Source: a virus (Duplodnaviria; Heunggongvirae; Uroviricota; Caudoviricetes). From it: a stretch of DNA of 6,504 bases. A model generated the notes under the pieces. That model was not told the origin of the DNA and made no database searches. It worked only from the letters and a program-made list of their open reading frames with translations. The stretch is taken from positions 1-6,504 of IMG/VR virus record IMGVR_UViG_2529293063_000012; one strand, 5' to 3'. Numbering within the stretch: the stretch's first letter is position 1; every line of letters begins with the position of its first letter. Positions 1 to 6,504 of the stretch are shown one piece after another. Both the position numbers and the translations under genes were made by a program.

Positions 1-1
1 C

Positions 2-1090
2 GGTGATGATAGTCCTGAAGCTCGGCGTATCACCCGCCGATGGGGTATAACTGAAGTAGCAGATTTAATTGGTGTAACTCCTCAAGCAATTAGAGATGCT
101 GAAAAGAGCGGGCGTTTACCTGCACCTGACTTTGAAATGAGAGGAAGAATTGAACGTCGTGCTGGTTATACCATAGATCAAATCAACAGTATGCGAGCAG
201 TTTTTGGCAACCCAAACCAACGACCACAAGATAAAAACCCTGTTGTGCTTGCCGTTATGTCACACAAAGGCGGCGTTTATAAAACATCGTCTGCGGTGCA
301 TCAAGCTCAATGGTTAGCATTACAAGGTCATCGTGTTCTTTTGGTTGAAGGTAACGATCCTCAAGGCACGGCCTCTATGTATCACGGTTATGTTCCTGAT
401 TTACATATCCATGCCGAGGATACTTTACTGCCATTTTACTTAGGAGAACGCGATAACGCTGAATATGCTATAAAGCCAACATGTTGGCCTGGGCTAGACA
501 TTATCCCTAGCTGCCTAGCTTTACATCGTATAGAAACAGATCTCATGCAATATCATGCTCAGGGTAAATTGCCTCATCCTCCACACCTTATGCTACGCGC
601 AGCTATTGAATCAGTTTGGGATAACTACGATGTTATCGTTATAGATAGTGCTCCGAACCTCGGTACAGGAACCATTAACGTTGTTTGTGCCGCTGACGTT
701 ATTGTTGTTGCTACACCTGCAGAATTATTTGATTACGCTTCTGTTCTGCAGTTTTTCACAATGCTTCTCGATCTATTGGAAAGCGTTGACCTAGGTGGAT
801 TTGAGCCAACCGTTCGCTTACTTCTGACTAAATATAGTCTCACTACAGGGAATCAATCACGATGGATGGAAGAACAAATAAGAAATACATGGGGATCAAT
901 GGTATTACGTCAGGTTGTACGCGTTACCGATGAAGTAGGTAAAGGCCAGATAAAAATGAGAACAGTATTTGAACAAGCAGCAAACCAACGTTCAACATTG
1001 AATGCATGGAGAAATGCTGTTTCTATATGGGACCCTGTTTGCCGAGAAATTTTTGATGATCTAATAAAACCTCGCTGGGAGAACGAATAA
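2..1090 (+). CDS. sopA: Partition ATPase SopA/ParA (type Ia Walker-type), 5'-partial: reading frame is open from position 2 with no stop, so the true start lies upstream of the window
   Basis: Translation from position 2 gives GDDSPEARRITRRWGITEVADLIGVTPQAIRDAEKSGRLPAPDFEMRGRIERRAGYTIDQ..., which continues into the ORF-track protein. It contains the deviant Walker A box (SHKGGVYKTS) and long stretches that match F-plasmid SopA as I recall it (e.g. VLLVEGNDPQGTASMYHG, KPTCWPGLDIIPSCLALHRIE, DVIVIDSAPNLG). The Met at 137 in the ORF track is internal. Confidence 0.9.
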   Translation, partial: GDDSPEARRITRRWGITEVADLIGVTPQAIRDAEKSGRLPAPDFEMRGRIERRAGYTIDQINSMRAVFGNPNQRPQDKNPVVLAVMSHKGGVYKTSSAVHQAQWLALQGHRVLLVEGNDPQGTASMYHGYVPDLHIHAEDTLLPFYLGERDNAEYAIKPTCWPGLDIIPSCLALHRIETDLMQYHAQGKLPHPPHLMLRAAIESVWDNYDVIVIDSAPNLGTGTINVVCAADVIVVATPAELFDYASVLQFFTMLLDLLESVDLGGFEPTVRLLLTKYSLTTGNQSRWMEEQIRNTWGSMVLRQVVRVTDEVGKGQIKMRTVFEQAANQRSTLNAWRNAVSIWDPVCREIFDDLIKPRWENE

Positions 1091-2055
1091 TGAAACAGCG
1101 CTCTCTTCTGAAAAATGCTCCAGATATTAATCGCATTATGAGTAATAATCATCATGCCCCTGAACATCAGCCCGTATCACCTATGGTTGGTGATTTAAAA
1201 CGTCAACTGAGCTCATTAACCGGTAACAGCATAACTTTGCCAGTATGCGGACGTAATGTTAACTTTAAGTTAGAGACAATTCCCGCAGATAAAGTTGAAA
1301 TGGCAACAATGGTATGGCTAGGTAATGAACGCGATCAAGATTTATTAAATGAATCCTCTCTAGCCGATTTAATCCCATCTTTTCTAACGTCTGGACAACA
1401 AAATCCAGCTTTCGCCAGAAAAGTATCTGGAATCGTTGAAGTCGCTGACGGCTCACGTAGAAGAAAAGCAGCGATATTAACAGGATGTGACTATCGCGTC
1501 TTAATTGGTGATCTCGACGATGAACAGATGCATTGGTTATCCCAAATTGGTAACGATTATAGGCCTATTAGTGCATACGAAAGAGGAAAGAGATACTTAC
1601 GCAAGCTAAATGACTTTGATGGTAACGTTAAAGCATTAGCCGAGGCTGAAAATATAGATAGAAATATTATCACTCGCTGTATCAATACAGCTGGTCTACC
1701 AAAAGATATATTAGCTATCTTCAATCATCCAGGAGAACTGTCAGCTCGTGCTGGAGATTCTTTGTTTAAGGTTTACAAAAAAAACATGGCTGCCATGAGC
1801 AATGCTGCTCATCATCTTCTGGCAATTAAAAAAAACGGCGAGGATTTAGAATCTTCACGGATTATACAAATATTATCTGACTCTGTTCTGGTTGGCGACG
1901 AGGAAAAAACAAAAGACGAGAAAAAATATGGGGAAGGGATCACTGCTAGATATAAAGGTAATTTTGTAACTATAAAAATTGATAGCCGCAAAATATCTAA
2001 AGAAATACTAAGCAGAATTGAGTTGTTACTAGAGGAACAATCTACTGATACTTAA
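1090..2055 (+). CDS. sopB: Partition centromere-binding protein SopB/ParB
   Basis: 321-aa ORF whose ATG overlaps the sopA stop by 1 nt (TAATG at 1088..1092), with GGAG about 9 nt upstream. Motifs match F SopB as I recall it (ITLPVCGR, WLGNERDQDLL, DLIPSFLTSGQQNPAF, VSGIVEVADGSRRRKAA, LSQIGNDYRPISAYERG, IITRCINTAGLPK, FNHPGELSARAGD). Confidence 0.9.
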   Translation: MKQRSLLKNAPDINRIMSNNHHAPEHQPVSPMVGDLKRQLSSLTGNSITLPVCGRNVNFKLETIPADKVEMATMVWLGNERDQDLLNESSLADLIPSFLTSGQQNPAFARKVSGIVEVADGSRRRKAAILTGCDYRVLIGDLDDEQMHWLSQIGNDYRPISAYERGKRYLRKLNDFDGNVKALAEAENIDRNIITRCINTAGLPKDILAIFNHPGELSARAGDSLFKVYKKNMAAMSNAAHHLLAIKKNGEDLESSRIIQILSDSVLVGDEEKTKDEKKYGEGITARYKGNFVTIKIDSRKISKEILSRIELLLEEQSTDT

Positions 2056-2059
2056 GAAG

Positions 2060-2082
2060 TATCCCCTGCATTGCAGGGGATA
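2060..2082. terminator. Perfect palindrome (11-bp arms, 1-nt centre) between convergent sopB and invertase genes; probable bidirectional intrinsic terminator, alternatively a protein-binding site
   Basis: TATCCCCTGCA-T-TGCAGGGGATA read directly at 2060..2082. It lies 5 nt after the sopB stop and about 22 nt from the invertase stop, with a T-rich stretch (TATTGATTTA) following on the + strand. Confidence 0.4.
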
Positions 2083-2104
2083 TTGATTTATGGTTGTACT
2101 CCAG

Positions 2105-2659
2105 TCAATGATTCCCAGCCGGAAACCTGCGGTAAAGCGTGGATAAAGCAACATCGAAGATAATCGCTATCTGTTTACGTGAAACACCATTCACAATAAG
2201 CCTTCCGACCTGTTCCCATTGCTCGGGTGCCAGTTTTGAGCGGCGCCCCCCTATCCTACCGTTAGCCCTTGCCACCGCTAATCCTGCACGCGTTCTTTCA
2301 ATAATATTTTCCCGCTCCATCTCTGCGACCGCACTCAGCATTGTGTAGGCAAAGCGGCCAATTGATGTGCTAATTTTTATTCCTTCTGTAACAGAAATAA
2401 ATTCAATGTTGTTTGATAAAAAATAGTTAAGCAATTCAACAAGATGAATCAGAGAACGCCCCATTCTGTCCAGCTTCCAGACAATAACCGTATCACCCGG
2501 TCGTAACGCTTTTATCAGCTTATCCAGTCCTGGTCGTTTTGACTTCGCGCCAGATATTTTATCTTCAAAAATCCGGTCACATCCTGAACTCCTGAGCGCT
2601 TCCAGTTGTAACTCCAAATTCTGGTCAAAAGTTGACACTCTCGCATAGCCGTATTGCAT
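2105..2659 (-). CDS. Serine-recombinase DNA invertase of the Gin/Cin/Hin/Pin family
   Basis: 184 aa with N-terminal catalytic motif YARVSTFDQ (Ser9), resolvase-domain motifs VWKLDRMGRS and AEMERENIIERT, and a C-terminal HTH (RKQIAIIFDVALSTLYRRFP) closely resembling Gin/Hin. Size and position next to a crossover site fit the family. Confidence 0.9.
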   Translation of the reverse strand: MQYGYARVSTFDQNLELQLEALRSSGCDRIFEDKISGAKSKRPGLDKLIKALRPGDTVIVWKLDRMGRSLIHLVELLNYFLSNNIEFISVTEGIKISTSIGRFAYTMLSAVAEMERENIIERTRAGLAVARANGRIGGRRSKLAPEQWEQVGRLIVNGVSRKQIAIIFDVALSTLYRRFPAGNH

Positions 2660-2694
2660 ACTTTCTAACCTGCAATTGTTGCTGAAAGCGGGAA

Positions 2695-2723
2695 AAAATA
2701 TCGTTCAGACGACACGGAGGCAA
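2695..2723 (-). promoter_or_regulatory. Candidate sigma70 promoter for the invertase gene (-35 TTGCCT, 17-nt spacer, -10 TATTTT on the minus strand), abutting cixL
   Basis: Read on the reverse complement of 2660..2730: TTGCCT-(17 nt)-TATTTT, about 35 nt upstream of the invertase ATG, with AGG..GAAAG before the ATG. The match to consensus is weak (4/6 and 4/6). Confidence 0.25.
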
Positions 2724-2749
2724 TTCTCAAAAACCTCGGTTTGCAGGAA
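2724..2749. repeat. cix/gix-like 26-bp inversion crossover site, left (cixL)
   Basis: TTCTCAAAAACCTCGGTTTGCAGGAA. Its reverse complement matches the site at 5974..5999 at 22 of 26 positions and resembles the Mu gix sequence as I recall it (TTCCTGTAAACCGAGGTTTTGGATAA). It lies between the invertase gene and the Sv cassette. Confidence 0.75.
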
Positions 2750-3898
2750 ACGGTAAATAAGGCTTCTGGCGCATTACAGAAAAACCAGAACGGCGCAGAT
2801 ATTCCCGATAAAAAACTATTCCTGCGTAATATCGGCACAACAAATTCAACAACCATGTCTTTTAGTGGTGGTGCTGGATGGTTCAAACTGGCAACTGTAA
2901 CAATGCCACAAGCCAGTTCCGTGGTTTACATAAGCCTGATTGGTGGCGCAGGGTATAACGTTGGCTCCTCGCATCAAGCAGGCATCTCTGAGCTGGTTCT
3001 GCGTGCCGGAAATGGGAATCCAAAAGGTATTACTGGTGCATTATGGCGACGGACCTCGGTTGGATTTACTCATTTTGCATGGGTGAATACATCCGGTGAT
3101 ACCTATGACATTTATGTAGAAATAGGTAATTACGCCACAGGTGTTAATATTCAGTGGGATTATACCAGTAACGCCAGCGTAACGATTCATACATCACCAA
3201 CTTATACAGCGAATAAACCAACAGGCCTGACAGATGGAACTGTATATGTAATTTACAGTTCGCACATTAAACCGACTGCTGCTGAGGTTGGGGCGTTGTC
3301 ATTATCTGGCGGTCAATTGAATGGTGCACTGGGCATCGGAACATCCAGTGTTCTTGGCGGTAACTCGATTGTTTTGGGGGATAATGATACTGGTTTCAAA
3401 CAGAACGGCGATGGCCTTCTTGATGTTTATGCTAATAGTCAGCATGTATTCCGTTTCCAGAATGGCGTGGCTATTGCTTTAAAAAACATTCAGGCCGGAG
3501 ATGGTAAAAAACTCTCGCTATCAAGCTCCAACAACTCCACAAAGAATGCAAGGTTTAATTTATGGGGTAATTCATCCCGCCCCGTAGTTGCAGAACTTGG
3601 TGATGATTCAGGTTGGCATTTTTATAGTCAAAGAAATACAGATAATTCAGTATTGTTCTCCGTTAACGGTCAGATAAACCCCAACAACTGGAGTAACTTT
3701 GATTCTCGTTATGTGAGAGATGTCCGACTTGGTACACGTGTTGTTCAGACTATGCAAAAAGGCGTGATGTATGAGAAATCAGGTCATGCAATTACGGGGC
3801 TTGGCATTATTGGCGCTGTTGATGGCGATGATCCGGCTGTATTCAGACCAATACAAAAATACATCAATGGCACATGGTATAACGTCGCACAGGTATAA
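2741..3898 (+). CDS. Tail-fibre variable C-terminal cassette Sv; silent in this orientation (no ATG; the TTG at 2741 in the ORF track is probably not a real start)
   Basis: The frame is open back to a TAA at 2666..2668 with no ATG between 2669 and 2740. The N-terminus encodes GLQETVNKA, the same junction peptide as in the expressed fibre (GLQETVNRA). The protein is Gly/Ser/Thr/Asn-rich and its C-terminus (NFDSRYVRDVRLG..., PIQKYINGTWYNV) parallels the Sv' C-terminus. Confidence 0.8.
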   Translation: MQETVNKASGALQKNQNGADIPDKKLFLRNIGTTNSTTMSFSGGAGWFKLATVTMPQASSVVYISLIGGAGYNVGSSHQAGISELVLRAGNGNPKGITGALWRRTSVGFTHFAWVNTSGDTYDIYVEIGNYATGVNIQWDYTSNASVTIHTSPTYTANKPTGLTDGTVYVIYSSHIKPTAAEVGALSLSGGQLNGALGIGTSSVLGGNSIVLGDNDTGFKQNGDGLLDVYANSQHVFRFQNGVAIALKNIQAGDGKKLSLSSSNNSTKNARFNLWGNSSRPVVAELGDDSGWHFYSQRNTDNSVLFSVNGQINPNNWSNFDSRYVRDVRLGTRVVQTMQKGVMYEKSGHAITGLGIIGAVDGDDPAVFRPIQKYINGTWYNVAQV

Positions 3899-3901
3899 TT
3901 T

Positions 3902-4045
3902 ATGCAGCATTTAAAAAATATTACTGCAGGTAATCCCAAAACTATCGAACAGTATCAACTTACAAAAGAATTTGATGTTATCTGGTTATGGTCCGAAGAC
4001 GGAAAAAACTGGTATGAGGAAGTGAAAAACTTTCAGCCAGACACA
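3902..4045 (+). repeat. Internal inverted repeat, arm 1 (5' end of U), ~88% nt identity to the reverse complement of 4848..4991
   Basis: Manual alignment of 3902..4045 against the reverse complement of 4848..4991 gives a 22-nt and a 48-nt perfect block (AATCCCAAAACTATCGAACAGTATCAACTTACAAAAGAATTTGATGTT) plus scattered mismatches. Identity starts exactly at the ATG. Confidence 0.8.
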
Positions 4046-4429
4046 ATAAAGATTGTTTACGATGCAAATAATATTATTGTCGCCATCACCAAAGATGCCT
4101 CCACGCTTAACCCTGAAGGTTATAGCGTCGTTGAGGTTCCAGATATTACAGCCAACCGCCGCGCTGATGATTCCGGTAAGTGGATGTTTAGGGACGGAGC
4201 TGTGGTTAAACGGATTTATACGGCAGACGAGCAACAACAACAGGCCGAATCACAAAAGGCCGCGTTGCTTTCTGAAGCTGAAAGCGTTATTCAGCCACTG
4301 GAACGCGCTGTCAGGCTGAATATGGCGACGGATGAGGAGCGTACACGACTGGAGTCATGGGAACGCTACAGCGTTCTGGTCAACCGTGTGGATACAGCAA
4401 AGCCCGAATGGCCACAAAAGCCTGAATAA
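3902..4429 (+). CDS. Tail-fibre assembly chaperone (U/Tfa family) cognate to Sv
   Basis: 175 aa starting 4 nt after the Sv stop (TAATTTATG). The N-terminal ~45 aa are nearly identical to the minus-strand paralogue ([26 protein letters not shown].WLWSE.GKNWYEE). Position directly downstream of a fibre tip is typical for Mu U and P2 G. Confidence 0.85.
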
Positions 4430-4434
4430 AAATT

Positions 4435-4454
4435 AAGGCCCGCTATCGGGCCTT
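4435..4454. terminator. Bidirectional rho-independent terminator hairpin between convergent U and U'
   Basis: AAGGCCCG-CTAT-CGGGCCTT, a GC-rich 8-bp stem with a 4-nt loop, sits in the 28-bp gap between the U stop (4427..4429) and the U' stop (4458..4460). Confidence 0.6.
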
Positions 4455-4457
4455 GTC

Positions 4458-4991
4458 TCATTCAGGTTGTTCGGGAAATATTACTGGCAGGCTGGAGGTG
4501 TCTGTAGATTCGACTTTCTGCGCATAGAGCATCCACTCGGTTAATTTTTGTTTATTCTCGTCGGAAATGATGCCCAGCCGTAGCTGTGAGTCCCATAGCT
4601 GTGTTTTATCCCTGACGAGCTGTAGCAGGCTTTGCTTTTCATTTTCCGCTTGTTGCCTCTGCTCTTCCTCGGTATAAGTTCGCTTTATCACTACGCCATC
4701 TTTGAACATCCAGTTGCCGGAAATATCAGCGCGTCGGTTTGCCGTAATATTGGGTAACTCAACCACACTCATTCCCTCTGGATTAATCAGGGATACATCT
4801 TTCTCAATACAGCAAATAACACCCTCCTGGTTATATGCCACTTTTAACGTGTCAGGCTGGAAATTTTTCTGTTCCTCATACCAGTTCTTACCTTCTTCCG
4901 ACCATAACCAGACAACATCAAATTCTTTTGTAAGTTGATACTGTTCGATAGTTTTGGGATTTCCTGCTTTAATATTTTTTAAATGCTGCAT
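4458..4991 (-). CDS. Tail-fibre assembly chaperone (U'/Tfa family) cognate to Sv'; start placed at the ATG at 4991 (the ORF track extends to a GTG at 5000)
   Basis: The protein from MQHLKNIKAGNPK... parallels U. The ATG at 4991..4989 follows the Sv' stop (4995..4993) in a TAATATG arrangement, with AGGA about 10 nt upstream. The C-terminal half diverges from U. Confidence 0.85.
   Translation of the reverse strand: MQHLKNIKAGNPKTIEQYQLTKEFDVVWLWSEEGKNWYEEQKNFQPDTLKVAYNQEGVICCIEKDVSLINPEGMSVVELPNITANRRADISGNWMFKDGVVIKRTYTEEEQRQQAENEKQSLLQLVRDKTQLWDSQLRLGIISDENKQKLTEWMLYAQKVESTDTSSLPVIFPEQPE
4848..4991 (-). repeat. Internal inverted repeat, arm 2 (5' end of U')
   Basis: Reverse complement aligns to 3902..4045 at ~88% identity (see arm 1). 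Confidence 0.8.
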
Positions 4992-4992
4992 A

Positions 4993-6504
4993 TTAAGCAC
5001 GTCCTACATTGTACCAATGACCATTAATATATTTCTGAACAGGAGCGTAGACAGGCCATTCTCTCGAATCATCAAAGTTGCCACCTGTCAGAACGTATCC
5101 GGCTGGAACCGTTCCGCCATCACCACCCCAGACAATCCCACTCTGGTTAGCACCCATGCGAACGTCACGAACATAGCGTGAGTCAAAATTACCATAATTG
5201 CCGGGAATAATTTGCGAGCCGCAAAGCCAATTCCCGTTATTATCCATGTACGCCTGACCATCGGTGCCATTGTCTGTCCTTGAGTTATTAATCATGTAGA
5301 TGCCAAATTCCCTATTCCCCAGTCCACCAATCATAAATTTGCGGTCAGCATGGTCCTGACGTAGCAATGCCTGGGCGCTATCAGTTTTAACTATATTTCT
5401 CCCAAAGATAGCGTTGTTATCGCGCATCTGAATCCACATACCATTACTGCTGTTAATAGCAAAACGGTTTGCAAATATATCCCCTGTAACATCAAGACCA
5501 TGCCCCATGCTTATCCGACCAGTTCTAAGATTAAGCGTAAAGGGGCGTAGTGGCCCTATATCACCATTTTCTCCCTCATTCTCTCGTGTAGGGATGATAT
5601 GCAGGCATTCTTCAGAACGACGAAAAATAGCACCAAAAGATGAATTAAATATCCTCAGTGCATTGACTGTCGATATTTTTACTTCACTGCTGAAAAGGGC
5701 TTTAACAAGGACAGACAAAGCATCCCATTTAAGATTCATCAGGTCTTTTGTTGTGGTGCTCTGGCGGCTTCTCCATTTGAAATATTCATTGCCGTTGTCG
5801 CCTGTTTCAAACCACATGTATGAATCAGTGTCACCATCAGCATCATTTTTAAATCCAATCTTCGCCCAGTCAGTATTTCGAATCCAGGCAAGGATAGAGT
5901 CGTTTTCAAAAGTAAGCCCACCGGACAAGGTATCGCCATTCTTTTGCACGGCGTTCCTGGCCCTGTTTACCGTTTCCTGTAAACCGAGGTATTCGATAAC
6001 GGCAGCAACGGTCGATTTCGCAAGAATATCCCGCCCGACTTTTGTCAGGGTTGCCAGGCTGGCGACATCATTCCCCGTAAAATACGGAAACCTGTCTGCC
6101 GCAGTAGCAAGCCCGGCCAGCGCCGTCAGGGTGGCATCTTTCGGTTGCTTACCCGCAAGCGCGTTAGTCATGGTGGTCGCAAAATTCGGGTCGTTGCCCA
6201 GCGCCGCCGCTAACTCGTTCAGCGTATTCAGTGCGTCAGGCGACGAGTCTACAAGGGCGGCAATCGCGGCCATCACATAAGCCGTACTTGCGATCTGAGT
6301 ATTATTAGTACCTTTTGGCGCAGTTGGCGTTGTTGGCGTTCCGGTCAGTGCAGGACTATTTAAGGGCGCTTTCTTGTTCGTTTCATCCATTACCGCCTTA
6401 ACCGCTTTTGGTGTCGCAGCCAGCGTTTCAGACGGGCTGTTAGTGGCGCTACTGAGCTGAACTATCCCTTTTCGTGCCGTCGTTGCGTCCTGAGCGGTAT
6501 ATTT
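4993..6504 (-). CDS. Tail fibre protein: constant N-terminal part (Sc, entering from the right window edge, 5'-partial) fused in frame to the variable tip Sv' (about 5973..4993); this is the expressed fibre in this orientation
   Basis: The minus-strand frame is open from 6504 through the ATG at 6390 with no stop (upstream peptide KYTAQDATTARKGIVQLSSATNSPSETLAATPKAVKAV-MDETNKK...). This region and PDALNTLNELAAALGNDP are typical of the conserved tail-fibre domain in Mu S / P2 H-like fibres. The crossover site lies inside the coding sequence at the GLQETVN junction. The C-terminus (NFDSRYVRDVRMG..., PVQKYINGHWYNV) parallels Sv. Confidence 0.85.
   Translation of the reverse strand, partial: KYTAQDATTARKGIVQLSSATNSPSETLAATPKAVKAVMDETNKKAPLNSPALTGTPTTPTAPKGTNNTQIASTAYVMAAIAALVDSSPDALNTLNELAAALGNDPNFATTMTNALAGKQPKDATLTALAGLATAADRFPYFTGNDVASLATLTKVGRDILAKSTVAAVIEYLGLQETVNRARNAVQKNGDTLSGGLTFENDSILAWIRNTDWAKIGFKNDADGDTDSYMWFETGDNGNEYFKWRSRQSTTTKDLMNLKWDALSVLVKALFSSEVKISTVNALRIFNSSFGAIFRRSEECLHIIPTRENEGENGDIGPLRPFTLNLRTGRISMGHGLDVTGDIFANRFAINSSNGMWIQMRDNNAIFGRNIVKTDSAQALLRQDHADRKFMIGGLGNREFGIYMINNSRTDNGTDGQAYMDNNGNWLCGSQIIPGNYGNFDSRYVRDVRMGANQSGIVWGGDGGTVPAGYVLTGGNFDDSREWPVYAPVQKYINGHWYNVGRA
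5974..5999. repeat. cix/gix-like 26-bp inversion crossover site, right (cixR), embedded in the tail-fibre coding sequence
   Basis: TTCCTGTAAACCGAGGTATTCGATAA matches the reverse complement of 2724..2749 at 22 of 26 positions, with homology extending about 8 nt further into the segment (TTTACCGT). It is very close to the Mu gix sequence as I recall it. Confidence 0.75.

What the first reader, a model, noticed from the sequence alone, without database searches (positions are those of the whole stretch)
2666..2760. Sv cassette has no start codon and shares a junction peptide with the expressed fibre
The Sv frame is open from 2669 with no ATG, and encodes GLQETVN across cixL, as the expressed fibre does across cixR. 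The crossover site is therefore under dual constraint, as recombination site and as coding sequence, and the TTG start at 2741 is probably not a real start. It also shows that the protein fusion is seamless after inversion.
Basis: seen in the sequence. Interest (0 to 1): 0.45.

Follow-up and report, generated by a model that had tools for sequence, protein, structure and literature searches.

The report
Promoterless tail-fibre cassette of a Mu-type DNA switch
This is the silent half of a flip-flop DNA switch, as in phage Mu: a spare tail-fibre tip with no start of its own that is read only after inversion fuses it in frame to the constant part of the fibre gene; this is a long-known mechanism, seen here in a plasmid-like prophage of E. 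coli.

Summary
TAA lies at 2666-2668. The + frame is open from 2669 and has no ATG or GTG before TTG 2741. Both ends of a 3.25-kb segment encode LGLQETVN across a 26-bp recombination site (2724-2749 and 5974-5999, cores TC and GA). In-silico inversion gives an uninterrupted Sc-Sv' fibre.

The sites, the 34-bp repeat and both junction peptides are those of the phage Mu G segment. The invertase reads away from the segment as gin does, not as P1 cin does, so the "cix" labels are misapplied. The element resembles an N15-like telomere phage-plasmid.

TTG 2741 is not a conserved start. It is TTA in about half of the relatives and in the window's other cassette, and it has no Shine-Dalgarno sequence. 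NCBI's annotation pipeline (PGAP) marks the equivalent cassette in relatives as lacking its N-terminus. An E. coli prophage carries exactly the predicted fusion as a 1057-aa fibre.

One correction: the 23 open codons before Gly 2738 mean nothing. That length is expected by chance in 25-37% of cases, and in one group of relatives (about 78-83% invertase identity) an in-frame TAA sits inside the invertase-side half-site. That half-site is never translated.

New member of a known kind; low interest.

The parts
2105..2659 (-). Serine DNA invertase, 184 aa, Gin/Cin/Hin/Pin type. Its 5' end faces the invertible segment and it is transcribed away from it.
   Evidence: ORF. Pfam Resolvase (E 2.9e-45) plus HTH_7 (E 1e-13). 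Best solved-structure match is Gin 3UJ3, E 1.8e-62, against 1.7e-31 for gamma-delta resolvase. 54.3% identical to Gin and 56.5% to Cin; the N-terminus reads GYARVSTFDQ, with Ser9 aligned to the catalytic serine of Gin.
2570..2641 (.). Candidate Fis-dependent recombinational enhancer inside the 5' part of the invertase gene (positions +19 to +90).
   Evidence: G-N13-C motifs at +22 (GTGTCAACTTTTGAC) and +71 (GTTCAGGATGTGACC). gin has motifs at both positions; cin has one at +71 only. Both positions fall inside the enhancer annotated in P1 cin at +19..+90. Confounded by protein conservation, so this is an inference.
2660..2723 (-). 64-nt spacer between the invertase ATG and the site; probably the invertase promoter and leader. 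On the + strand this is the meaningless 'open frame' upstream of the site.
   Evidence: Best promoter-like match on the - strand is TTGCCT-17-TATTTT (8 of 12) at 2723..2695, abutting the site. The same geometry is found in L002 and L088, and TTGCCC-17-TAACTT at the same place in L096. It falls below the threshold of the standard scan. Inference.
2666..2668 (+). TAA that closes the Sv' frame upstream.
2724..2749 (.). Left 26-bp gix-like recombination site TTCTCAAAAACC-TC-GGTTTGCAGGAA, with the crossover dinucleotide TC at 2736-2737. The outer half (2724-2735) is never translated; the inner half encodes G-L-Q-E.
   Evidence: 27.1 bits. A site lies 64-65 nt from the invertase ATG in 17 relatives. 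23 of 26 positions match Mu gix TTATCCAAAACCTCGGTTTACAGGAA.
2741..2743 (+). TTG: a Leu codon of the junction peptide, not an initiation codon.
   Evidence: TTA in 9 of 19 sites next to the invertase and in the window's right arm. No Shine-Dalgarno sequence.
2738..3898 (+). Silent variable cassette (Sv'-like): 386 codons plus stop, with no promoter and no start of its own. It begins like Mu S'.
   Evidence: 94% nucleotide identity to Mu S' over 2723-2805. 90.7% protein identity to the C-terminal 386 aa of the expressed fibre WP_000268769.1.
3902..4429 (+). Silent tail-fibre assembly gene (U'-like), 175 aa.
   Evidence: Pfam Caudo_TAP, E 2.8e-37.
4435..4454 (.). G+C-rich hairpin between the convergent U' and U genes; terminator of the expressed operon.
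4458..4991 (-). Expressed tail-fibre assembly gene (U-like), 177 aa. Its ATG lies 1 nt after the fibre stop codon.
   Evidence: Pfam Caudo_TAP, E 8.5e-36. Its first 150 nt form a 90% inverted repeat with U' (I1).
4993..5985 (-). Variable cassette now in the expressed position (Sv-like). It begins like Mu S.
   Evidence: 94.4% nucleotide identity to Mu S over 5695-5999.
5974..5999 (.). Right 26-bp site, TTCCTGTAAACC-GA-GGTATTCGATAA on the + strand, core GA at 5986-5987, inverted relative to the left site. Both halves are coding.
   Evidence: 21.8 bits.
5988..6504 (-). Constant part of the fibre gene (Sc-like). It runs off the window; the last 173 codons before the crossover are in view.
   Evidence: The frame is open to the window edge. 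Pfam Phage_fiber_2. 98.3% identical to residues 499-671 of a lambdoid-prophage fibre.

Best explanation
The finding sits at the invertase-proximal end of a 3.25-kb invertible tail-fibre segment (crossover to crossover, 2736-5987). The segment works like the G segment of phage Mu.

The fibre gene has one promoter, one start codon and a constant 5' part (Sc), all outside the segment on the - strand. The reading frame runs through the right recombination site into whichever variable cassette faces it.

The other cassette, now 2738-3898, followed by its own assembly gene U', faces the invertase gene. It has neither promoter nor start codon and is silent.

The serine invertase (2105-2659) binds the two inverted 26-bp sites and cuts at the 2-bp core. 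The core forms codon positions 2 and 3 of a Leu CTC codon in both arms. The invertase then rotates and rejoins the ends, so inversion replaces Sv-U by Sv'-U' without any change of frame.

Because the frame passes through them, the Sc-side half-site and both inner half-sites must serve both as invertase-binding DNA and as the peptide ...L-G-L-Q-E. The fourth half-site, next to the invertase gene, is DNA signal only. TTG 2741 is the second Leu of that peptide.

Shown here: the anatomy, the in-frame fusion, comparative loss of the TTG, a natural fused homologue, and membership of the invertase family.

Inferred: that this copy actually inverts, Fis and enhancer dependence, the invertase promoter in the spacer, and the change of host range.
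For: - In-silico inversion gives an uninterrupted 559-aa frame from the window edge.
- Both arms read L-G-L-Q-E-T-V-N, and the core dinucleotides are TC and GA, that is, inverted.
- Mu has gixL and gixR = TTATCCAAAACCTCGGTTTACAGGAA, with junctions IQNLGLQETVNRARNAVQKNGD (S) and IQNLGLQETVNQASGALQQNQNGADIP (S'). The window's two cassettes begin the same way. gin starts 67 nt beyond the G-segment boundary and reads away from it.
- The GenBank records of Mu and P1 already annotate Sc as encoding the amino-terminal end and Sv' as encoding the carboxy-terminal end of the alternative fibre.
- The invertase has Resolvase and HTH_7 domains, and its best solved relative is Gin.
- In relatives the site keeps its distance from the invertase ATG while the Leu codon alternates between TTG and TTA. 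In 11 relatives a TAA lies two codons before Gly.
- WP_000268769.1 is the natural Sc+Sv' fusion.
- In plasmid pZ1323HEC0355-3, whose backbone is 98% identical, the Mu-S-type cassette sits in the silent position, opposite to the window.
- PGAP marks the silent cassette in relatives as N-terminally incomplete.
Against: - No direct evidence that this copy inverts. No record in the three collections carries the same segment at high identity in the other orientation; the best match is 77% coverage at 92.7% identity.
- The Shine-Dalgarno argument is weak on its own, because real genes here also have poor Shine-Dalgarno sequences: -3.2 kcal/mol for the invertase and -3.8 for U'.
- The enhancer and promoter assignments rest on weak motifs, and the enhancer motifs are confounded by coding conservation.
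- The half-site asymmetry counts are not phylogenetically independent.
Confidence: 0.93

Rival explanations
1. TTG 2741 is a genuine initiation codon, and the cassette makes an independent 385-aa protein in the orientation shown.
For: The mechanical ORF list reports a 385-aa ORF from TTG 2741. Automatic annotation of some phage records calls an independent CDS in the equivalent cassette: Mu Mup52 'Predicted by GeneMark', and vB_YpM_44 P44_00027.
Against: - The codon is TTA in 9 of 19 sites next to the invertase and in the window's other cassette.
- Anti-Shine-Dalgarno pairing is at the background median.
- No promoter-like site lies upstream on the + strand, and the only upstream + strand transcription unit ends at the terminator at 2058-2084.
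- The gene callers choose a different start in each record, as expected for artefacts.
- A fibre tip without the constant part would lack the Sc domains, including the Phage_fiber_2 repeats.
Confidence: 0.03
2. The switch is dead: the silent cassette is a relic, and the segment is frozen in the present orientation.
For: Frozen relatives exist. In E. coli 504239 the invertase is reduced to a 64-aa fragment. No inversion isomer of this exact segment was found.
Against: - The invertase here is full length, with both domains and the serine aligned to the catalytic serine of Gin.
- Both sites score far above background, and their cores are identical.
- The silent cassette and U' are intact ORFs, 90.7% identical to an expressed homologue.
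- A plasmid with a 98% identical backbone carries the cassette types the other way round.
Confidence: 0.05
3. The open frame from 2669 is a vestige or alternative N-terminal extension of the cassette, so the whole of 2669-3898 is a coding unit.
For: The frame is open for 23 codons, and the peptide AILKNL resembles AVIEYL at the other arm.
Against: - The open length is expected by chance in 25-37% of cases.
- The resemblance is confined to the 12-nt half-site, so it follows from the DNA repeat.
- In 11 relatives with about 78-83% invertase identity, a TAA lies inside the half-site, leaving only 2 open codons.
- There is no start codon in the stretch.
- The stretch is the divergent upstream region of the invertase gene.
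Confidence: 0.01

Closest known systems
G segment and Gin of bacteriophage Mu (gixL/gixR, Sc-Sv-U / U'-Sv')
   Same: - Two-site segment of about 3 kb with the same gene order.
- The invertase lies outside the segment, about 65 nt from the site, and reads away from it.
- 26-bp sites match at 23-24 of 26 positions, the 34-bp repeat ends at ...ACGGTAAA, and the core is TC.
- The junction peptide NLGLQETVN and the first residues of both cassettes are the same (RARNAVQKNGD / [Q/K]ASGALQ.NQNGADIP).
- Nucleotide identity is 94% just inside each site.

   Different: - The invertase is only 54% identical to Gin, whereas Gin and Cin are 75% identical to each other.
- Apart from one weak 88-nt match (76%) far upstream in Sc, nucleotide similarity to Mu stops at the outer edge of the sites. 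The constant part is a lambdoid/N15-type side tail fibre with Phage_fiber_2 repeats, not Mu S.
- The distal parts of the cassettes are mosaic.
- The host element is a plasmid prophage with SopA/ParB, not a transposable phage.

   Same: Same family of invertase (56% identity). Same principle: a constant Sc fused in frame to Sv or Sv' across the crossover site (P1 reads LGLRE). The U and U' genes are 84% identical at nucleotide level.
   Different: - P1 cin reads towards the segment, and its 3' end overlaps cixL.
- The C segment is 4.2 kb.
- The cix core is TT, and the junction reads IQYLGLRELGTSGEK.
- No nucleotide similarity at the sites.
The labels cixL and cixR are therefore analogies, not identities.
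Invertible side-tail-fibre regions of E. coli prophages and plasmids (e14 Pin/P region, p15B Min; recalled from the literature, not tested here) and the lambdoid prophage of E. coli 504239
   Same: A lambdoid-type constant fibre part is joined to exchangeable C-terminal cassettes plus assembly genes. The 504239 fibre has the same Sc (98.3%) and the same Sv' (90.7%), joined at the same site.
   Different: In 504239 the invertase is truncated. p15B Min has six crossover sites; the window has only two. Comparison with Pin and Min sequences was not made.

Membership tests
Gin/Cin/Hin/Pin (Din) serine DNA-invertase systems | Small serine recombinase with an N-terminal catalytic domain (active-site Ser9/10) and a C-terminal helix-turn-helix domain | tested here: met
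   Pfam Resolvase E 2.9e-45 and HTH_7 E 1e-13. GYARVSTFDQ aligns with Gin GYVRVSTNDQ. Best solved relative is Gin, E 1.8e-62.
Gin/Cin/Hin/Pin (Din) serine DNA-invertase systems | Two 26-bp imperfectly palindromic sites in inverted orientation with identical 2-bp cores, flanking the segment | tested here: met
   Sites at 2724-2749 and 5974-5999, cores TC and GA, scoring 27.1 and 21.8 bits against a shuffle maximum of 18.5 bits. There is no third site.
Gin/Cin/Hin/Pin (Din) serine DNA-invertase systems | Fis-bound recombinational enhancer, usually inside the 5' part of the invertase gene | tested here: inconclusive
   G-N13-C motifs at +22 and +71, inside the span annotated as enhancer in P1 cin; gin has motifs at both positions, cin at +71 only. 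These positions are also constrained by the protein sequence. Fis binding cannot be tested here.
Gin/Cin/Hin/Pin (Din) serine DNA-invertase systems | The segment actually inverts (both isomers occur in a population) | not testable with these tools
   Only one sequence is available. The indirect evidence is a plasmid with a 98% identical backbone that carries the cassette types in the opposite arrangement.
Mu G-type tail-fibre switch (constant Sc plus alternative Sv cassettes) | The crossover site lies inside the fibre ORF, and both cassettes are in frame with Sc | tested here: met
   The core is codon positions 2-3 of Leu CTC in both arms. The inverted isomer translates without interruption.
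Mu G-type tail-fibre switch (constant Sc plus alternative Sv cassettes) | The silent cassette lacks its own promoter and start codon | tested here: met
   No ATG or GTG occurs between 2669 and 2741. The TTG is not conserved. No promoter-like site was found. Expression itself was not measured.
Mu G-type tail-fibre switch (constant Sc plus alternative Sv cassettes) | Each cassette is followed by its own tail-fibre assembly gene, and the two sets converge | tested here: met
   U' 3902-4429 (+) and U 4458-4991 (-), both Caudo_TAP, with a hairpin between them.
   Here the 5' end of the invertase gene faces the site at 64 nt, the core is TC, and the segment is 3.25 kb.

The most novel reading that the evidence does not exclude
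The most novel reading not excluded: the gix-bounded segment is a mobile cassette that moves between unrelated phage types (Mu-like transposable phages, P1-like and N15-like plasmid prophages, lambdoid prophages) by invertase-mediated recombination at the sites themselves. Nucleotide similarity to Mu begins at the outer edge of each 26-bp site, and the site stays nearly identical although the invertase is only 54% identical to Gin. The in-frame LGLQETVN junction would then be a universal splice adaptor for fibre tips. The idea of fibre-module exchange at these sites is old (work of Sandmeier, Iida and Arber in the 1990s; from memory). What would be new is a demonstration that it happens across invertase lineages.
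Probability: 0.3. Interest if true: 0.35.

Novelty: new member of a known kind. Interest (0 to 1): 0.12.

Why it matters
It matters little as a discovery. Since the 1980s it has been known for Mu and P1 that a promoterless, startless fibre cassette is fused in frame through the recombination site, and the reference GenBank records annotate it that way.

Practical value:
1. Annotation. ORF 2741-3898 should be recorded as the alternative 3' part of the fibre gene, not as a gene or a decayed pseudogene. Gene callers treat such cassettes inconsistently.
2. Host range. A prophage of this kind can make two fibre tips, so predicting host range from one assembly is incomplete.
3. Site evolution. The set of relatives separates DNA-level from protein-level constraint on the four half-sites.

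Tried and rejected
1. Search for an inversion isomer of this exact segment. Megablast of the whole window and of 2738-5985 against phages, plasmids and complete E. coli genomes found no record with at least 80% coverage. Inversion of this copy therefore remains unshown.

2. An apparent homology breakpoint at 2732 in plasmid NZ_CP148365.1. This is an artefact: the circular record is linearised at that point. After joining the two ends, the match runs to 2764.

3. A possible third site at 4734-4747 (direct repeat D18). It does not appear among the ten best site scores, so I take it as chance. The system has two sites, not several as in p15B Min.

4. The genome-contig scan with the invertase returned mostly distant resolvase-like loci at 40-50% identity. 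Only L004 was useful.

5. The standard promoter scan found nothing on either strand in 1900-3100. A relaxed search gave only an 8-of-12 candidate for the invertase.

6. Shine-Dalgarno energies discriminate poorly here, because genuine genes also score weakly.

7. The P1 genome paper could not be retrieved. I used the P1 and Mu GenBank annotations instead.
Full report
**What is in the window.**
- The window carries the 3' part of a ParA/SopA gene, in the frame that ends at 1090. The longest listed ORF in that frame is 137-1090.
- ParB follows at 1090-2055 (Pfam SoPB_HTH), then a terminator hairpin at 2058-2084.
- A 184-aa serine recombinase lies on the - strand at 2105-2659.
- On the + strand come a 385-aa ORF from TTG 2741 to 3898 and a tail-fibre assembly gene at 3902-4429.
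- On the - strand, converging on these, are a second assembly gene (4458-4991) and a long fibre ORF. The fibre ORF ends at 4993 and is open to the window edge at 6504.

**Check of the observation.**
- TAA is at 2666-2668. The frame is open from 2669 and reads PAIVAESGKKYRSDDTEAILKNLGLQETVNKASG.... Its first ATG, GTG or TTG is TTG 2741.
- The - strand fibre reads ...AKSTVAAVIEYLGLQETVNRARNAVQKNGD. The shared peptide LGLQETVN is real.
- It lies in a 40-nt inverted repeat, 2724-2763 / 5960-5999, 85% complementary.
- The repeat contains two 26-bp sites, TTCTCAAAAACC-TC-GGTTTGCAGGAA and (reverse-complemented) TTATCGAATACC-TC-GGTTTACAGGAA. Their cores are TC at 2736-2737 and GA at 5986-5987.
- I built a half-site weight matrix from 20 distinct half-sites of the window, Mu and relatives. 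The two sites score 27.1 and 21.8 bits. The next independent position scores 4.8 bits. The maximum over 300 shuffles averaged 7.1 bits (sd 2.9), with a highest value of 18.5 bits. The matrix includes these sites' own half-sites, so the scores are somewhat favoured.
- The repeat is therefore not a chance feature, and there are only two sites.
- The open stretch upstream is unremarkable. It is 23 codons from 2669 to the Gly codon at 2738. In the window, 37% of all positions and frames have at least that many open codons behind them, and 25% of composition-matched shuffles stay open.

**In-silico inversion.**
- Reverse-complementing 2736-5987 leaves the - strand frame uninterrupted. It runs 559 aa from the window edge and is identical to the present protein for 180 aa, through ...VIEYLGLQETVN. 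It then continues KASGALQKNQNGADIP... to the Sv' stop.
- The core dinucleotide forms positions 2 and 3 of a Leu CTC codon in both arms, so the exchange cannot shift the frame.
- In the inverted isomer the cassette that becomes silent carries TTA where the present one has TTG. Its first start-like codon would be GTG 2774.

**What it is.**
- The recombinase has Pfam Resolvase and HTH_7 domains.
- Its best solved relative is the Mu invertase Gin (3UJ3, E 1.8e-62), well ahead of gamma-delta resolvase (1.7e-31).
- It is 54.3% identical to Gin and 56.5% to P1 Cin, which are 74.7% identical to each other. The serine of GYARVSTFDQ aligns with the catalytic Ser9 of Gin (the Ser9 role is from PMC3575834).
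- Mu has gixL and gixR = TTATCCAAAACCTCGGTTTACAGGAA. Its junction peptides are LFIQNLGLQETVNRARNAVQKNGDTLSGGLT for S and IIQNLGLQETVNQASGALQQNQNGADIPGKD for S'. gin starts 67 nt beyond the G-segment boundary and reads away from it.
- The window matches this on every point. The site lies 64 nt from the invertase ATG, and the invertase reads away from the segment. The expressed cassette begins RARNAVQKNGDTLSGGLT, like Mu S. The silent cassette begins KASGALQKNQNGADIP, like Mu S'. The repeat extends 8 nt beyond the 26-bp site to ...ACGGTAAA, as in the 34-bp repeats reported for Mu and SfMu (PMC4406740).
- P1 is organised differently. cin reads towards the C segment and its 3' end overlaps cixL, the segment is 4.2 kb, the core is TT, and the junction reads IQYLGLRELGTSGEK.
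The locus is of the Mu G/gin type.

**Host element.**
- The backbone is 98% identical over 1-2764 to plasmid pZ1323HEC0355-3 (NZ_CP148365.1).
- That plasmid has a protelomerase, SopA/ParB and a CyRepA1 replication protein on one side. On the other side it has host-specificity protein J, Lom and a 'prophage tail fiber N-terminal domain' protein.
- That plasmid therefore looks like an N15-like telomere phage-plasmid, and the fibre is a lambdoid-type side tail fibre.
- The partition genes also match Klebsiella phage Kpn_R1 at 77%, which I take to be the N15-like phage described in PMC12029707.
- I found no mention of invertases or inversion in a recent survey of telomere phages (PMC12042878).

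**Comparative tests of the interpretation.** I oriented 24 invertase-bearing loci like the window: 21 viral contigs, one genome contig and two annotated plasmids.
- In 17 of them a recognisable site lies 64-65 nt from the invertase ATG, and in one more at 108 nt.
- (a) Counting the window, the codon equivalent to TTG 2741 is TTG at 10 sites and TTA at 9. These are synonymous Leu codons, and TTA cannot initiate.
- (b) In the relatives with 91-95% invertase identity the upstream stretch is open, but it is simply the same conserved DNA. In 11 loci with about 78-83% invertase identity the half-site reads A[TC][CA]TATAAAAC[GC]. An in-frame TAA there lies two codons before Gly. The invertase-side half-site and everything upstream are therefore not coding.
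- (c) The resemblance of AILKNL to AVIEYL comes from the half-site repeat (..TT.TC.AA.ACC). It is not evidence of translation.
- (d) All 10 distinct inner (coding) half-sites have C or T at half-site position 7, which gives Leu TTR. All 8 distinct invertase-side half-sites have A there, which in the coding arm would give Phe TTT. The counts are not phylogenetically independent, but they fit a protein-level constraint laid over the DNA signal.
- (e) Within the shared peptide the two arms of the window differ only at two synonymous third positions, TTG/TTA and AAT/AAC.

**A natural fusion.**
- The best matches to the silent cassette in complete E. coli genomes lie inside long fibre genes.
- In E. 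coli 504239 the annotated 1057-aa fibre WP_000268769.1 is 98.3% identical to the window's Sc over 173 aa. It is 90.7% identical to all 386 aa of the silent cassette. The two parts are joined at ...AAVIEYLGLQETVNQASGALQKKQNGADIPDKKLFLRNIGTTNSTTM.
- This is the protein predicted for the inverted isomer.
- In pZ1323HEC0355-3 the Mu-S-type cassette sits next to the invertase, in the silent position, which is the reverse of the window.
- PGAP annotates the silent cassette in relatives as 'phage tail protein; incomplete; missing N-terminus'.
- The P1 and Mu reference records describe Sv' as encoding the carboxy-terminal part of the alternative fibre.
- Other annotations call an independent CDS there, with a different start each time: Mu Mup52, whose GTG start lies outside the G segment, and vB_YpM_44 P44_00027. 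I read these as gene-caller artefacts.

**Translation and transcription signals.**
- The 20 nt before TTG 2741 pair with the anti-Shine-Dalgarno sequence at -2.3 kcal/mol. This is at the 47th percentile of all 626 start-like triplets in the window.
- This argument is weak alone, because the invertase (-3.2) and U' (-3.8) also score poorly.
- No sigma-70-like site is found on either strand in 1900-3100.
- A relaxed search finds TTGCCT-17-TATTTT on the - strand at 2723-2695, abutting the site. The same geometry is present in relatives.
- I infer that 2660-2723 is the promoter and leader of the invertase gene, which would explain why it is conserved. This is not shown.
- Two G-N13-C motifs at +22 and +71 of the invertase gene (gin has both, cin the one at +71) fall inside the enhancer annotated in P1 at +19..+90. 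This makes 2570-2641 a candidate Fis enhancer. Coding conservation confounds the argument.

**Mosaic structure.**
- Nucleotide similarity to Mu is 94% over 2723-2805 and 5695-5999. Apart from one weak 88-nt match (76%) far upstream in Sc, it stops at the outer edges of the sites.
- U and U' are about 84-85% identical to those of Mu, P1 and D6. The distal parts of the cassettes match other prophages.
- No record in the three collections has the whole segment.
- This fits the known modular exchange of fibre parts. It leaves open the modestly novel idea that the sites themselves serve as exchange points between phage lineages.

**Verdict.**
- The mechanism is the textbook Mu G-segment switch. The locus is a new, somewhat divergent member in a phage-plasmid with N15-like relatives.
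- Not shown here: that this copy inverts, that it depends on Fis, and that the two fibres give different host ranges.

Noticed in passing
window 1-2084; L001 and L128 (NZ_CP148365.1): The partition genes and the invertase region are 98% identical to a 45.9-kb E. coli plasmid that carries a protelomerase, CyRepA1, J, Lom and a side tail fibre. That plasmid thus looks like an N15-like telomere phage-plasmid, not P1 or Mu. In it the invertible fibre segment sits between the tail genes and parB. The record is deposited as circular, and its origin falls inside the recombination site.
   Followed up: partly
window 3901-4050 and 4843-4992: A 150-nt inverted repeat, 90% complementary, formed by the 5' ends of the two assembly genes U' and U. 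It is much longer than the invertase sites. It could support homologous recombination that inverts the 792-nt piece between the two repeat arms independently of the invertase.
   Followed up: no
window 6395-6504; L002 8217-8558; L127 7319-7528: The last 110 nt of the window, in the constant fibre part (Phage_fiber_2 region), match two to four successive places in relatives, spaced 132 nt apart. This suggests a tandem coding repeat whose copy number varies between fibres. The window is cut before this can be seen here.
   Followed up: no
L126 (Mu NC_000929.1) 3568-4554: RefSeq Mu annotates S' (Mup52, 'Predicted by GeneMark') as an independent CDS that starts at a GTG 29 nt outside the G segment. 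In Mu that frame happens to stay open for 97 codons further upstream, antisense to gin.
   Followed up: partly
L129 (E. coli 504239 chromosome) 6782-6976: In this lambdoid prophage both gix-like sites are present (3493 and 6708), but the recombinase gene is reduced to a 64-aa fragment. The switch there is probably frozen with the Sv'-type cassette expressed.
   Followed up: partly
window 4989-4995 and 3896-3904: The assembly genes start 1 nt (U) and 3 nt (U') after the stop codon of the preceding fibre cassette, and both have weak Shine-Dalgarno sequences. This suggests translational coupling. The ORF list's GTG 5000 start for U is probably wrong; ATG 4991 matches the U' start MQHLKNI.
   Followed up: no
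L094, L097, L099 (viral contigs): Three relatives with 78-82% invertase identity lack a recognisable gix-like site at the usual distance. L094 and L097 show a divergent GTTCGTTT[AG]GGAGC motif there instead. These may be variant site types.
   Followed up: no
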